Assembly (NCBI GenBank): GCA_964016885.1
Contig: OZ024764.1
Coordinates: 22,506,001 to 22,570,000, forward strand
From: Eledone cirrhosa
Lineage: Eukaryota
DNA: 64,000 nucleotides
Reading direction: 5' to 3'
Part shown: piece by piece, positions 5,505 to 63,972 of the stretch
Layout of the letters: each line of letters opens with the position of its first letter
Numbering within the stretch: the first letter of the stretch is position 1
Program-made: the position numbers and the translations under genes
The notes under the pieces: generated by a model
What the model was told of the DNA's origin: nothing
The model's input: only the letters and a program-made list of their open reading frames with translations
Database searches by the model: none

Positions 5505-6368
5505 ATGTCGAAAAATATAGTAAAATCACCATTCCACTGTGATATCTGTGGTAAATCATTCTCTCGTAGTAATCACCTAACTACTCACAAACGTATTCAT
5601 ACAGGAAAGAAACCATATCACTGTGATATCTGTGGTAAATCATTCTCTCAGAGTAATACCTTAACTGATCACAAACATATTCATACAGGAGGGAAGCCAT
5701 ATCACTGTGATATCTGTAACAAATCATTCAGTCACAGTAGTAGCGTCAGTGTTCACAAACAAATTCATACAGGAGAGAAGCCACATCACTGTGATATCTG
5801 TGGTAAATCATTCTCTCGTAGTAGTCACCTAATTACTCACAAACGTATTCATACAGGAGAGAAGCCACATCACTGTGATATCTGTGGTAAATCATTCAGT
5901 CTCAGTTATACCTTAACTACTCACAAACGTATTCATACAGGAGAGAAGCCATATCACTGTGATATCTGTGGTAAATTATTCAGTCACAGTAATACCTTAA
6001 CTATCCACAAACGTACTCATACAGGAGAGAAGCCATATCACTGTGACATCTGTGGTAATTCATTCTCTCATAGTAATCACCTAACTACTCACAAACGTAT
6101 TCATACAGGAGAGAAACCATATTACTGTGATATTTGTGGGAAAGCATTCTCTCAAAAATACAACCTAACTACTCACAAACGTAGTCATACAGGAGAAAAA
6201 CCATATCACTGTGATAACTGTGGTAAATCATTTGCTGACAGAAGTTGCTTAGCTACCCACAAACATACTCATACAGGAGAGAAGCCATATCACTGTGACA
6301 TCTGTGATAAATCATTCTCTCGAAGTGGTACCTTAACCAGGCATGTGCGTATTCATACAGAAGTTTAG
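5505..6368 (+). CDS. Tandem C2H2 zinc-finger protein, 10 fingers, no effector domain (ZNF-1)
   Basis: 287-aa ORF of C-x2-C-x12-H-x3-H repeats with TGEKPY linkers. Starts [12 protein letters not shown] and ends HVRIHTEV*. Confidence 0.92.
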
Positions 6369-6394
6369 CTGTATCAATATCAAACTCATTACAT

Positions 6395-7905
6395 CATACT
6401 ACAACAACAACAACAAATGTGTAGATCCATCATCCTTGCTAAAACTGGGGTCAACCTTGTAGGTTTTACCTAGGACAGGGATCATAAACACCAGGTTTCT
6501 ATTTTTGAAGCCGTGTTTGAAGATTTTGTGTAAATTAAAGTTTTTCACATTAAACTTTGATTTATTATACTTTAACAGGTAAGATATATATTTGTATTTT
6601 TAGTAAAGGTTTGGGAACTTCTGTAATTTAAACCTGCCAATAAAATGAAAACTTTTGTTGTTGTTAGTCAGACATTGATATTAATTCTATTGTACATTGT
6701 CTCAAATATCACAGATTAAACAGATTTTAACAATAACAACAGAAATCAATAACTTGTAAGCCTAATATCTAGCTTCCATTTTAACTATTTGATATTGTTG
6801 TTCCTCTCCTGTCTCTTCAGGTCTTTTAGATTTCAACTTCTATCTACTCTACTATTCCATCACCAAGGCAACATTCATCTTGCTGGCAGCTTACATCAGC
6901 TACAGATCTCATCAGTGGTTCACAACAGGCTGTCTGAAAGAAACTTCCAGATATCTTCTATGTCATAGCTATCAATCTCCTCCTCCTTATCATATGTATC
7001 ATGTAGAACATCTCTGAATTTATATTTAACAGGGAGATCTTTTACTATCCCTACCCTTTTCTCTAGGTTGTCTTGTACCTCTCTCACAGTCCCTCTAGAT
7101 CTTATATTTAACGGAGATATTTTACTGTCCTTACCCTTTTCTCTAGGTTGTCTTGTACCACTCTCACAGTCCCAGTAGATCTTATATTTAACAGGGAGAT
7201 GTTTTACTCTCCAACCCTTCTATCTCCAGATAGTCTTGTATCTGTCAGTCCCTCTAGATCTTACACCTAGTATCTAGTCTATGTTGAGTGGTACGTCCTT
7301 CTCCAGTAAAGGAGTTAATATTCCCAACCATCTGTCTATCCTGTTTTCTGATGAGAATGAAGTCAATCTAGTTTATCTCTTCACCTGATTGAAGTAACTA
7401 GATCAAGTAATTAGATGTTTTCCTGTAAGTTAGTGTTGCAGTGTTTGTGTCACCATGTAAGGTTTATATCTATTAATATAGAGATGTAGTAAAGTTTTCA
7501 CTGTTGTATCTCTACTTTCTAAATATCTTAATAATGTTTCTCTACTATTTCAGAATATCACATGACCTTGACAGAAAAGAGTCTTTTAAAGACAACAGAA
7601 AGATGTTACATACAAGTGATATAAACTTGTTTAGTCTGTGGTGAATTATGGTGAAATATTTCTTCTGAATTGAGATAAATAACAACATTTTCCTTTTTCA
7701 CTGTCTGGAATATTTACAAGATGATTTTACATTCTGATTAAATTTTGGATATTTACAAAGGAGTTTTCAAAATATTTGGATATTGACAAAGATCACATTT
7801 GGTAAAATTATGAACAATAGAAATATTTACATCAACATAGGAATATTTTCCAGAAGAGATGGGAAAATCATATACCACTAATATTTGTGGTAAAGTATTC
7901 TCTCT
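6395..7905 (+). pseudogene. Relic second ZNF gene (exon-1-like segment, donor at 6579, acceptor at 7553, decayed first finger)
   Basis: Shares ctacaacaaca and tgaaaacttttgttgttg with exon 1/intron 1 (21180, 21376). The acceptor and UTR are similar to 4740-5290. It ends in GKSLYHCNICGKVFS-like sequence, clearest in the copy near 47511. Confidence 0.6.
7020..7265. repeat. 82-bp minisatellite, about 3 copies
   Basis: Unit cttatatttaacagggagatcttttactatccctacccttttctctaggttgtcttgtacctctctcacagtccctctagat. Confidence 0.8.
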
Positions 7906-8046
7906 TCTTTATATGTAGAACATCTAACTAAACACTTTAACTAACAAACTATTGTGCTATAAAATTGACAAACTTGAGCAATGTTTAATAAATGTTACAG
8001 ATTTCTCCAAACTGTCGTTTACTAACTTTAATTTGAAGCTATGTTA

Positions 8047-60560: not shown

Positions 60561-61015
60561 AATCTAATGTCACTAATAACTACTTTTATCAGTCAGTTTA
60601 ATCTAATGTCACTAATAACTACTTTTATCTGTCAGTATAATCTAATGTCACTAATAACTACTTTTATCAGTCAGTTTAATCTAATGTCACTAATAACTAC
60701 TTTTATCAGTCAGCATAATCTAATGTCACTAATAACTACTTTTATCAGTCAGTATAATCTAATGTCACTAATAACTACTTTTATCAGTCAGTTTAATCTA
60801 ATGTCACTAATAACTACTTTTATCAGTCAGTATAATCTAATCTCACTAATAACTACTTTTATTAGTCAGTTTAATATAATGTCACTAATAACTACTTTTA
60901 TCTGTCAGTTTAATCTAATCTCACTAATAACTACTTTTATCAGTCAGTTTAATCTAATGTCACTAATAACTACTTTTATCAGTCAGTTTAATCTAATGTC
61001 ACTAATAACTAACCT
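60561..61015. repeat. 39-bp minisatellite, about 11.5 copies
   Basis: Same unit as 43644-44215. Confidence 0.95.
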
Positions 61016-61972
61016 ATGTTAGTCAGCACATTCTTCACCTAAGAAGGCCTTAGTATTTATTACAGTCCATTTATCAATATAGAAATATTATATGAAATTT
61101 GTACTGATGTATTACAAGTTTCTGAGTATCTTATAATGTTCTTTTATTATTTCAGAATACCAGAGGACATTGGCATTAAAGAGCACGTTACATCAGACAT
61201 ATCCTCAACATTAACCATTTCTAATGAAAGACACTACCCATCATTTTCAAATAATTTTGAAAACACTCAACACTTTGAAGGGATTTAGTAATATAACTAA
61301 ATTTCTCAGTATTAAGCTGCTATTTGGAACATAACTTTGCACAATCTCATGAAGTTACAATGGAAAGTTTTTAGATAAATATAAAGACTGGTATGAAAAG
61401 GATAAAACACTTTTATATCAGTTGTTTCATCAACACTATTATTTAAAGACTAAAGGAAGCTGTTATACAGAACAGATACAACCTTGTTTATATAAATCTA
61501 TGGGAGAAATACTGTGAAATATTTCTTGTAAACTCAATAACCCTTCTATTCTTTGCTGTCTGGAATATGTAGAAGATACAAAATAAAGCTGAAGAAATTT
61601 ACACATGATTTTGTAAGATCTTCATATATTGACAAAGTTGATAGTTGATGGAACTACAGGAGTAGAAATATTTCCATTTTTACAGGAATAACTAATCAAA
61701 TGAAAACTAGAAAAATTAGATTCTTCACTGTCTGGAATATGTACAAGATGATTTTATATGTATATTAAACTTGAAGACATCAACAAAACAGTTTGTATCA
61801 TCTTTAAATATAAAGAAAGACCAAGTTGATGGAAATATATCTGGAGGAATATGTTTTAGGAATAATATTATAAACATAAAGAAGAAAAATATCCATATAT
61901 TGCGAGGAGAAAAATATTAAAACTGTGAATTATGTGAGAAACTGGGGTGATTGATATCTTTTAGTAGGAGTT

Positions 61973-63972
61973 ATGTCGAAAAATATAGTAAAATCACCAT
62001 TCCACTGTGATAACTGTGGTAAATCATTCTCTCGTAGTAATACCTTAGCTACCCACAAACGTACTCATACAGGAGAGAAGCCATATCCCTGTGACATCTA
62101 TGGTAAATCATTCAGTCACCATAGTAACTTAACTACTCACAAACATATTCATACAGGAGAGAAGCCTTATAAGTGTGATATCTGTAACAAATCATTCAGT
62201 CACAGTAGTAGCGTCAGAGTTCACAAACAAATTCATACAGGAGAGAAGACACATCACTGTGACATCTGTAGTAAATCATTCTCTTGCAGATATAGCCTAA
62301 CTACTCACAAACATATTCATACAGGAGAGAAACCATATCACTGTGACATCTGTGGTAAATCATTCTCTCATAGTCATCACCTAACTACTCACAAACATAT
62401 TCATACAGGAGAGAAACCATATCACTGACATCTGTGGTAAATCATTCTCTCAGAGTCATCACCTTACTACTCACAAACGTATTCATACAGGAGAGAAACC
62501 ATATCATTGTGACATCTGTGGTAAATCATTCTCTCATAGTAATCACCTAACTACTCACAAACATATTCATACAGGAGAGAAACCATATCACTGTGACATC
62601 TGTGGTAAATCATTCGCTCATAGTCATCACCTAACTACTCACAAACATATTCATACAGGAGAGAAACCATATCACTGTGACATCTGTGGTAAATCATTCT
62701 CTCATAGTCATCACCTAACTACTCACAAACATATTCATACAGGAGAGAAACCATATCACTGTGACATCTGTGGTAAATCATTCTCTCATAGTCATCACCT
62801 AACTACTCATAAACATATTCATACAGGAGAGAAACCATATCATTGTGACATCTGTGGTAAATCATTCTCTCATAGTAATCACCTAACTACTCACAAACGT
62901 ATTCATACAGGAGAGAAACCATATCATTGTGACATCTGTGGTAAATCATTCTCTCATAGTCATTACCTAACTACTCACAAACGTATTCATACAGGAGAGA
63001 AGCCTTATAAGTGTGATATCTGGTAACAAATCATTCAGTCACAGTAGTAGCGTCAGAGTTCACAAACAAATTCATACAGGAGAGAAGTTATATCACTGTG
63101 ACATCTGCGGTAAATCATTCTCTGACAGAAGTAGCTTTGTTAAACACCATCGTATTCATACAGGAGAGAAACCATATCACTGTGACATCTGTAGTAAATC
63201 ATTCTCTGACAGAAGTAGCTTTGTTAAACACCATCGTATTCATACAGGAGAGAAGCCATATCACTGTGATATCTGTGGTAAAACATTCTCTGAAAATAAT
63301 AATCTAACTACTCACAAACGTATTCATACAGGAGAGAAGCCATATCACTGTGATATCTGTGGTAAAACATTCTCTGTAAATAATAATCTAACTACTCACA
63401 AACGTATTCATACAGGAGAGAAGCCATATCATTGTGACATCTGTGGTAAATCATTTTCTCGTAGTCACCTAACTACTCACAAACATATTCATACAGGAGA
63501 GAAGCCATATCACTGTGATATCTGTGATAAATCATTCTCTCAGCATAAAACCTTAACTACCCACAAACGTACTCATACAGGAGAGAAGCCATATCACTGT
63601 GACATCTGTGGTAAATCATTCTCTCATAGTAATACCTTAGCTATCCACAAACGTACTCATATAGGTGAGAAGCCATATCATTGTGACATCTGTGGTAAAT
63701 CATTCGCTGACAGAACTAGCTTAGCTACCCACAAACGTACTCATACAGGAGAGAAGCCATATCACTGTGACATCTGTGGTAAATCATTCTGTCATAGTAA
63801 TACCTTAGCTACCCACAAACGTACTCATACAGGAGAGAAGCCATATCCCTGTGACATCTGTGGTAAATCATTCAGTCACCGTAGTAACTTAACTACCCAC
63901 AAACGTACTCATACAGGAGTACTCTGACAGTAGTACCTTAACCAAGCATGTGTGTATTCATACAGAAGTTTA
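61973..63972 (+). pseudogene. Tandem C2H2 ZNF with about 23 fingers, frameshifted (ZNF-4); pseudogene or assembly error
   Basis: 2-bp loss at about 62426 (cactgacatc for cactgtgacatc), 1-bp gain at about 63022 (tggtaac), and a deletion in the last finger at about 63918. The homologous stop (gaagtttag) is at 63972. Confidence 0.8.

What the first reader, a model, noticed from the sequence alone, without database searches (positions are those of the whole stretch)
5505..63972. Effector-less ZNF paralogues whose finger arrays behave as an exchangeable 84-bp minisatellite
Seen: four genes share near-identical starts (MS[K/E]NIVKSPFHC), ends (HVRIHTEV) and flanks, yet have 10, 17, 13 and about 23 fingers in different orders. 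The scaffold DNA is almost invariant and variation is concentrated in the recognition helix. Whole fingers are shared in mosaic fashion: QHKTL-HSNTLAI-DRTSLAT in ZNF-2 and -4, [14 protein letters not shown] in ZNF-1 and -4, [13 protein letters not shown] in ZNF-3 and -4. Known: PRDM9 and KRAB-ZFP arrays diversify this way, and octopus has large clustered C2H2 expansions. Inference: the cluster generates new DNA-binding specificities, possibly against TEs, without KRAB/ZAD/SET domains, so it would act by steric blocking or through an unknown cofactor.
Basis: partly seen in the sequence, partly recalled or inferred. Interest (0 to 1): 0.75.

Follow-up and report, generated by a model that had tools for sequence, protein, structure and literature searches.

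The report
Octopus zinc-finger cluster reshuffling fingers
These four genes (one broken) belong to a run of at least 155 near-identical zinc-finger genes in what is likely an octopus, whose DNA-reading fingers differ in number and order, likely because recombination duplicates, deletes and swaps them, and which have lost the short starter peptide of their relatives, so they would act by binding DNA alone.

Summary
The observation mostly holds. The four loci are 16-22 kb tandem duplicates in a cluster of at least 155 copies over 4.75 Mb of one contig, in a likely octopus genome. ZNF-4 is frameshifted, and the scaffold is about 90% identical, not invariant.

Across 105 copies, 10 of 22 near-identical pairs differ in finger number, and 8 genes (5 groups) are two-parent mosaics. 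Contact codons show omega 1.3-2.4 depending on method, against about 0.1-0.2 at zinc ligands; gene conversion biases these tests.

No known effector domain lies upstream. The genes are secondarily leaderless: the ~33-residue starter peptide of dispersed octopus ZNFs survives as broken DNA before the ATG. That peptide evolves nearly neutrally and was lost elsewhere too, so it is a poor KRAB substitute. Expression, splicing and targets are untested.

It works like young vertebrate poly-ZF clusters, with faster finger turnover, and is less homogenised than human or mouse PRDM9. The scan found this before on other DNA, including this same cluster (e1-9885569, e1-9591632).

The parts
5505..6368 (+). 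ZNF-1 coding exon, 287 aa, 10 canonical C2H2 fingers, 9 residues before finger 1. Its candidate promoter/first exon, upstream of the window, is deleted.
   Evidence: promoter block positions 107-298 missing in L163
27051..28490 (+). ZNF-2 coding exon, 479 aa, 17 units (14 canonical; the last lacks its first Cys through a 9-nt deletion); two-parent mosaic array
44825..45937 (+). ZNF-3 coding exon, 370 aa, 13 units (12 canonical), rich in within-gene finger duplications
61973..63973 (+). ZNF-4, frameshifted copy: ORF 61973-62428 (151 aa), 23 units plus a truncated last unit; lesions shared with other copies
28170..28403 (+). Three-finger block of ZNF-2 shared with ZNF-4 (3 differences in 234 nt)
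63511..63744 (+). The same three-finger block in ZNF-4
5322..5504 (+). Relic of the 5' region and starter peptide of dispersed octopus ZNFs: start codon lost, 22-nt deletion, in-frame stops
   Evidence: nhmmer E 3e-12 over 5322-5475 and alignment
61791..61972 (+). Same relic before ZNF-4
   Evidence: nhmmer E 4.9e-16 over 61791-61945
44686..44824 (+). Partial relic before ZNF-3 (5' part missing)
   Evidence: nhmmer E 9e-4
27004..27050 (+). Last ~45 nt of the relic before ZNF-2, with tandem AG acceptor-like sites just before the ATG (present in all four loci)
   Evidence: splicing inferred, not shown
21131..21240 (+). Candidate promoter and ATG-free first exon with donor-like GTAAGT for ZNF-2 (motif labels NRF1-, ETS- and E-box-like are recalled)
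   Evidence: 169 exact copies of a 30-mer, the 100 listed all in the cluster and oriented like the genes
35529..35638 (+). Candidate promoter/first exon for ZNF-3
55055..55164 (+). Candidate promoter/first exon for ZNF-4
6369..7263 (+). Conserved 3' flank (likely 3' UTR, several AATAAA/ATTAAA); ZNF-2 and -3 have matching flanks

Best explanation
This is a young tandem cluster of at least 155 fingers-only C2H2 zinc-finger genes in a likely octopus genome, whose arrays likely change by unequal recombination among 84-bp units within and between copies, with selection likely favouring new DNA-contact residues, and whose proteins would work as sequence-specific DNA binders without an effector domain. 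Shown: copy number, arrangement, finger number and order differences, mosaic arrays, the substitution pattern and the dead leader. Inferred: (1) 16-22 kb units amplify by unequal exchange, also as ~105-kb multi-gene blocks; (2) misaligned 84-bp units are gained or lost about as often as a few point mutations accumulate in the flanks, and crossovers or conversion tracts occasionally move multi-finger blocks between copies; (3) each unit is transcribed from its own promoter, with a non-coding first exon spliced to the single coding exon; (4) translation starts at what was an internal Met of the ancestral leader; (5) the proteins most likely bind repeats (transposons or simple/satellite repeats) and act by occupancy or through finger-bound partners. 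Step 5 is the least supported.
For: 155 exact start-context copies, all on C25 19.13-23.88 Mb, 0 in the reversed control. Of 105 copies examined, 75 have intact ORFs, giving 71 distinct proteins and 65 distinct contact strings; 7-28 units per gene. 10 of 22 pairs with both flanks <=1% apart (mean 0.36%; 96 genes; pairs not independent) differ in finger number. 1367 fingers fall into 239 types; 163 occur in >=2 genes, and 88 of these have >=2 different neighbours on both sides. 8 of 105 genes (5 groups) are two-parent mosaics; L014 has 5' flank distance 0.000 and 3' 0.140 to its 5' parent, and 0.026 at the 3' flank to its 3' parent. Contact codons N:S 237.5:31.5 against 424:199 in the scaffold; omega 1.6-1.7, 0.5 and 0.1 for contact, scaffold and Zn ligands. 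Codon models give contact omega 1.7-2.4, p 7e-5 to 7e-15. Within-gene scaffold identity is 90% against 82% in 20 dispersed genes, with no overlap. In-frame stop within 12 codons upstream in 105 of 105, ancestral start in 0 of 105. No KRAB, ZAD, SET, BTB or SCAN in 125 upstream frames. Octopus ZNFs were predicted to prefer TE sequence (PMC10547256, passages).
Against: No RNA evidence of expression or splicing was obtained. 26 of 105 copies are broken (4 more unresolved), and ZNF-1 lacks the candidate promoter. On the most recent changes only, contact omega is 1.28-1.35 (p 0.047-0.096) and scaffold omega 0.90-0.97, close to neutral. Gene conversion violates the single-tree model (PMC5519329, passages). 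Finger sharing barely tracks the flanks (Mantel r <=0.12), and the 3' flank sides with the 3' parent in only 4 of 7 mosaics. The ZNF-2/4 trio is not clearly younger than the flanks. Dispersed controls also show within = between identity. No binding target was predicted or tested.
Confidence: 0.62

Rival explanations
1. Fingers are duplicated and lost only within each gene; fingers shared between genes were inherited through whole-gene duplication from a long ancestral array, with little exchange between genes.
For: 27 of 59 window fingers have their nearest neighbour in the same gene (25 other gene, 7 ties). The trio's divergence (1.3%) is near that of the 3' flank (1.8%). Only 8 of 105 genes pass the strict mosaic test.
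Against: 62 finger lineages at 8 nt and 38 at 10 nt exceed the longest array seen (28 units). L014 has flanks from two parents. 5' and 3' flank distances are uncorrelated (r -0.015), which itself points to recombination between copies.
Confidence: 0.18
2. The cluster is largely a neutral, satellite-like amplification of a truncated ZNF gene; helix diversity is old variation being shuffled, and most copies do nothing.
For: 26 of 105 broken; private new mutations are near neutral in most classes, on small counts; broken genes show similar patterns; the leader was lost before amplification.
Against: Zinc-ligand and core Phe codons are strongly conserved (omega 0.07-0.22). 75 of 105 ORFs of several hundred codons are intact. 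Contact omega exceeds 1 in all four completed codon-model runs.
Confidence: 0.1
3. An upstream coding exon splices into the tandem AG acceptors before the ATG (all phase 1) and adds an unrecognised effector peptide, as in FiNZ- or KRAB-ZNF genes.
For: The acceptor-like sites allow an open in-frame junction. FiNZ is only 28 aa on its own exon (PMC10547256, passages) and would be missed by a scan of frames >=45 aa.
Against: The candidate first exon has no ATG before its donor-like site in the copies printed. The DNA before the ATG is a decayed copy of the same-exon leader. Annotated octopus relatives begin at that leader (P0134, P0146, P0148, P0153-P0156). No known domain upstream.
Confidence: 0.1

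Closest known systems
Coleoid cephalopod C2H2-ZNF expansion (PMC12513265, parts 1-3 of 7 and passages read; PMC9068888, passages read)
   Same: Lineage-specific, clustered poly-C2H2 genes. Closest named N-terminal matches are Octopus proteins, and the 5' DNA is homologous to dispersed octopus-type ZNFs.
   Different: The text read gives gene counts, trees and expression, not finger-level turnover, selection at contact codons or N-terminal anatomy. This subfamily has lost the leader.
Young vertebrate poly-ZF/KRAB-ZNF clusters (PMC12575710, PMC2604467, PMC3126818; passages read)
   Same: Expansion by multi-gene segmental duplication, many distinct fingerprint arrays, finger gain and loss, positive selection at -1, 3, 6, some gene conversion. 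PMC2604467 reports this also in KRAB-less fish expansions.
   Different: No KRAB, SCAN or BTB exon. Fingers form a very uniform pool (84% DNA identity across genes), and finger number differs even between near-identical copies.
PRDM9 zinc-finger minisatellite (PMC5519329, passages and section 10 part 1 read)
   Same: 84-bp units turned over by duplication and conversion; diversity concentrated at DNA-contact residues.
   Different: Multi-gene cluster, no KRAB/SSXRD/SET. Share of diversity at contact sites has median 0.40 (4 positions) or 0.30 (3 positions), against 0.687 for human and 0.910 for mouse PRDM9, though near the low end of the complete orthologs listed (0.33-0.46). The positions used in that table were not checked.
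Cyprinid FiNZ-ZNF genes (PMC10547256, passages read)
   Same: KRAB-less lineage-specific expansion under positive selection; a shared start region could allow family-wide knockdown.
   Different: FiNZ is a conserved 28-aa domain on a separate exon. The octopus leader is in the finger exon, nearly neutral beyond codon 7 and dead in this cluster.

Membership tests
Cephalopod expanded poly-C2H2 ZNFs | Tandem C2H2 fingers with TGEKP-type linkers | tested here: met
Cephalopod expanded poly-C2H2 ZNFs | Homology to octopus ZNF genes outside the fingers | tested here: met
   nhmmer E 4.9e-16 to the 5' region of dispersed genes whose leader matches named Octopus proteins
Cephalopod expanded poly-C2H2 ZNFs | Clustered lineage-specific duplication | tested here: met
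   155 copies in 4.75 Mb; no related genome was on hand to date it
Cephalopod expanded poly-C2H2 ZNFs | Expression in nervous tissue | not testable with these tools
   no expression data for this organism could be examined
KRAB-ZNF | KRAB domain exon | tested here: not met
   0 of 125 upstream frames >=45 aa, and none among the 25 best families shown for each of 3 coding exons; exons <45 aa not scanned
KRAB-ZNF | Excess non-synonymous change at -1, 2, 3, 6 | tested here: met
   weaker
KRAB-ZNF | Binding and repression of transposons | not testable with these tools
   no binding predictor or assay
PRDM9 | KRAB-SSXRD-SET domains | tested here: not met
PRDM9 | Minisatellite-like finger turnover | tested here: met
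   10 of 22 near-identical pairs differ in finger number
PRDM9 | Very high share of diversity at contact sites | tested here: inconclusive
   0.40 or 0.30 against 0.32 or 0.25 in dispersed genes; below human and mouse PRDM9
FiNZ-like (short conserved N-terminal effector) | Conserved translated N-terminal peptide | tested here: not met
   leader dead in 105 of 105; dN/dS 0.83 for codons 8 onward in 15 dispersed genes

The most novel reading that the evidence does not exclude
The cluster is an effector-free recombining library. More than 150 co-regulated genes draw blocks from one pool of about 240 finger types and generate new DNA specificities within a species. They silence or shield repeats by occupancy alone, or compete with leader-bearing octopus ZNFs whose acidic first codons carry an unrecognised cephalopod effector motif.
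Probability: 0.12. Interest if true: 0.75.

Novelty: new variant of a known kind. Interest (0 to 1): 0.42.

Why it matters
What the expanded cephalopod C2H2 genes do, and whether they are in an arms race with transposons, is called an open question in PMC12513265 (passage). This cluster shows the vertebrate-type signature (finger turnover, selection at contact residues) without any known effector domain. All 155 copies share a 23-nt start context, and a 30-nt promoter-like word has 169 copies, so one antisense or CRISPRi reagent could test much of the family, as was done for zebrafish FiNZ genes. The evolutionary processes themselves are known, so the surprise is moderate.

Tried and rejected
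RNA: no RNA holder listed. Laying contigs on L031 was swamped by generic ZNF contigs. On window 5300-5549 no joint was seen; X24 (kind unknown) runs across the acceptor-like site, X6 gave 0 records, and X1 and X3 gave 2 and 1 contigs under 90% alike, likely other subfamilies. None of this bears on expression or splicing.

A whole-protein homolog search was crowded by unrelated ZNFs.

The leader as a KRAB substitute was rejected. dN/dS is 0.83 beyond codon 7 against 0.29 in the finger scaffold; codons 1-7 were selected by my search pattern and cannot be scored. There is no credible Pfam match (1 of 15 at E 0.017). Among 36 loci picked by 5' DNA rather than by the leader (some listed twice), at least 6 at four genomic sites start at the internal Met with 9-16 fingers in frame.

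Equal within- and between-gene identity was rejected as proof of exchange, because the controls show it too. Assembly error was rejected for the ZNF-4 frameshifts because they are shared; 13 of 18 listed lesions are single-copy and could include errors. Weak PHD and RVT hits lie in an inserted element found only in some units, and the PaaX, bacteriocin and importin hits are translated 39-bp repeat. One codon-model run failed numerically and was replaced by a bounded run on a 36-nt segment.

The 2015 octopus genome paper was not held, so I saw nothing of it. Supplements were not read. Searches listed no paper describing finger shuffling or this leader in octopus; most subscription journals are not searched.
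Full report
Setting. The window is G000:C25:22506001-22570000 in a 3.0-Gb genome. Named proteins closest to the N-terminal 40 residues are mostly Octopus ZNFs, so an octopus is inferred. It consists of 16-22 kb tandem duplicates, each with one C2H2 exon, interrupted by different insertions and VNTRs.

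Observation. The starts, finger counts and all quoted shared peptides are present. ZNF-1, -2 and -3 are open (287, 479, 370 aa). ZNF-4 stops after 151 aa and carries two frameshifts, both shared with L124 and one with L055. Finger DNA is 90% identical in the scaffold and 65% in the helix.

Extent. A 23-nt start context has 155 exact copies, all on C25 between 19.13 and 23.88 Mb, in both orientations. I examined 105 copies: the window's 4 and 101 fetched. 62 are intact to the usual end, 13 are intact with an alternative HTGVL end, 26 are broken and 4 lacked the end marker; they have 7-28 units. Coordinates of twin arrays show a ~105-kb multi-gene duplication spanning ZNF-1 and -2.

Finger turnover. 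Among 96 genes with both flanks, 22 of 4560 pairs differ by <=1% on both sides (mean 0.36%). 10 of these differ in finger number, 9 are collinear, and 3 have equal number but were flagged, two of them likely through a frameshift or terminal finger in my ungapped comparison. The pairs are not independent. 1367 fingers form 239 types; 163 occur in at least two genes, and 88 of those have at least two different neighbours on each side. 92 of 105 arrays are distinct type strings. Family scaffolds are more uniform (90%) than those of 20 dispersed ZNF genes (82%), with no overlap.

Exchange between genes. A strict test (two non-overlapping blocks of >=4 fingers from parents sharing <=25%) finds 8 mosaics in 5 groups, including ZNF-2. 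The 5' flank sides with the 5' parent in 6 of 7 and the 3' flank with the 3' parent in 4 of 7; L014 is the cleanest case. 59 of 4560 pairs share a run of >=3 near-identical fingers while sharing <=35% of their arrays, and 83% of these have both flanks >=1.5% apart. Against free exchange: finger distances barely track flank distances, the ZNF-2/4 trio differs by 1.3% against 1.8% for their 3' flanks, and within = between identity also holds in controls. Exchange of blocks is therefore likely real, and within-gene turnover is at least as important.

Selection. On nearest-neighbour edges of 517 unique units, contact codons (-1, 2, 3, 6) have omega 1.6-1.7, the scaffold 0.5 and zinc ligands plus Phe 0.1. 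A fixed-site codon model gives contact omega 1.86-2.44 on 178 types and 1.73-2.35 on 288 short helix segments (p 7e-5 and 2e-10). On the most recent changes, with a flank-derived mutation spectrum, contact omega is 1.28-1.35 (p 0.047-0.096), the scaffold 0.90-0.97 and ligands 0.22. Conversion violates tree models (PMC5519329), so positive selection is likely and its size uncertain. The share of diversity at contact sites is above dispersed genes and below human and mouse PRDM9.

Effector question. No KRAB, ZAD, SET, BTB or SCAN domain was found in 125 upstream frames >=45 aa. A recalled motif led to a search that found 36 genomic matches (0 in control). 20 of the 25 loci fetched are ZNF ORFs with >=4 fingers that begin with a leader of 27-35 aa, MENELCE-type, in the same exon as the fingers. 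Named O. sinensis and O. bimaculoides proteins begin the same way. A profile of these genes' 5' DNA hits directly upstream of ZNF-4 (E 4.9e-16) and ZNF-1 (3e-12). The start codon is gone, 22 nt are deleted, and the present ATG aligns with an internal Met of the leader. All 105 copies have an in-frame stop within 12 codons upstream, and none keeps the old start. The cluster is thus secondarily leaderless. The leader is a weak effector candidate: dN/dS is 0.83 beyond codon 7, and other subfamilies also start at the internal Met. 40 of 105 copies keep only the last ~30 nt of the ancestral 5' region, and 28 of these are intact, about the same share as the rest.

Gene model. A promoter-like block with an ATG-free stretch and a donor-like site lies 5.9-9.3 kb upstream of ZNF-2, -3 and -4. 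A 30-mer of it has 169 exact copies; the 100 listed are all in the cluster and flip with the genes. It is deleted before ZNF-1. Splicing to the tandem AG sites before the ATG is inferred. A short upstream coding exon cannot be excluded without RNA.

Mechanism and comparison. Most likely this is a birth-and-death factory of fingers-only DNA-binding proteins, whose repeats make arrays unstable and whose contact residues are under diversifying selection. Binding to transposons or other repeats is an inference from the family-level prediction in PMC10547256. Segmental expansion, finger gain and loss, conversion and contact-site selection are described for vertebrate clusters, including KRAB-less fish ones. 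The cephalopod expansion is described at gene level. What differs here is the uniform finger pool, the fast turnover and the lost leader. Earlier scan notes reached similar readings on this and other clusters; I saw them after forming my reading.

Verdict.

Noticed in passing
L031 (G000:C25 ~20.353 Mb) and L007: L031 begins with 13 consecutive fingers with the same helix (KNTKLTR) and altered TEEK linkers; L007 has a similar run. Such an array would be expected to read a trinucleotide repeat.
   Followed up: no
window 20366-21017 and 54287-54943: A ~650-bp element with long terminal inverted repeats (MITE-like) sits inside the 73-bp VNTR just upstream of the candidate promoter, in opposite orientations in the two units.
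   Followed up: no
window 20109-20366 and 21773-21991: The 73-bp and 62-bp VNTRs look like inverted relatives flanking the candidate promoter (seen by eye).
   Followed up: no
window 41587-43505 (-), 36093-40415 and 1-3110 (+), 22357-25746 and 56343-59714: Insertions between the candidate promoter and coding exon, present in only some units: a retroelement with a 539-aa RVT frame, a decayed element with weak PHD and RVT hits, and a 3.3-kb unidentified insert. They could date duplications.
   Followed up: partly
window 51678-52283 (-): Remnant frame with a Spin-doc zinc finger (Pfam PF18658, E 6e-7), likely from a DNA transposon.
   Followed up: no
window 43643-44211, 60559-61011; L004, L005, L011, L036, L040: The 39-bp VNTR upstream of the coding exon ranges from under 0.2 kb to over 4.5 kb among copies.
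   Followed up: no
3' flanks of L001-L125: Some 3' flanks differ by about 14% while 5' flanks differ by about 3% on average, suggesting two old 3' lineages or uneven homogenisation.
   Followed up: partly
window 5459-5475 and 61927-61945: The dead leader leaves a very short upstream ATG-stop frame about 45 nt before the main ATG, which could damp translation if this stretch is in the mRNA.
   Followed up: no
G000:C3:147.62-147.75 Mb (L134-L146), C26 and C27 hits: Other ZNF clusters share the same 5' DNA (575 candidates); the C3 cluster also starts at the leader's internal Met.
   Followed up: partly
13 of 105 copies, e.g. L024, L036, L058, and ZNF-4: A shared deletion in the last finger gives an alternative C-terminus HTGVL.
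   Followed up: no
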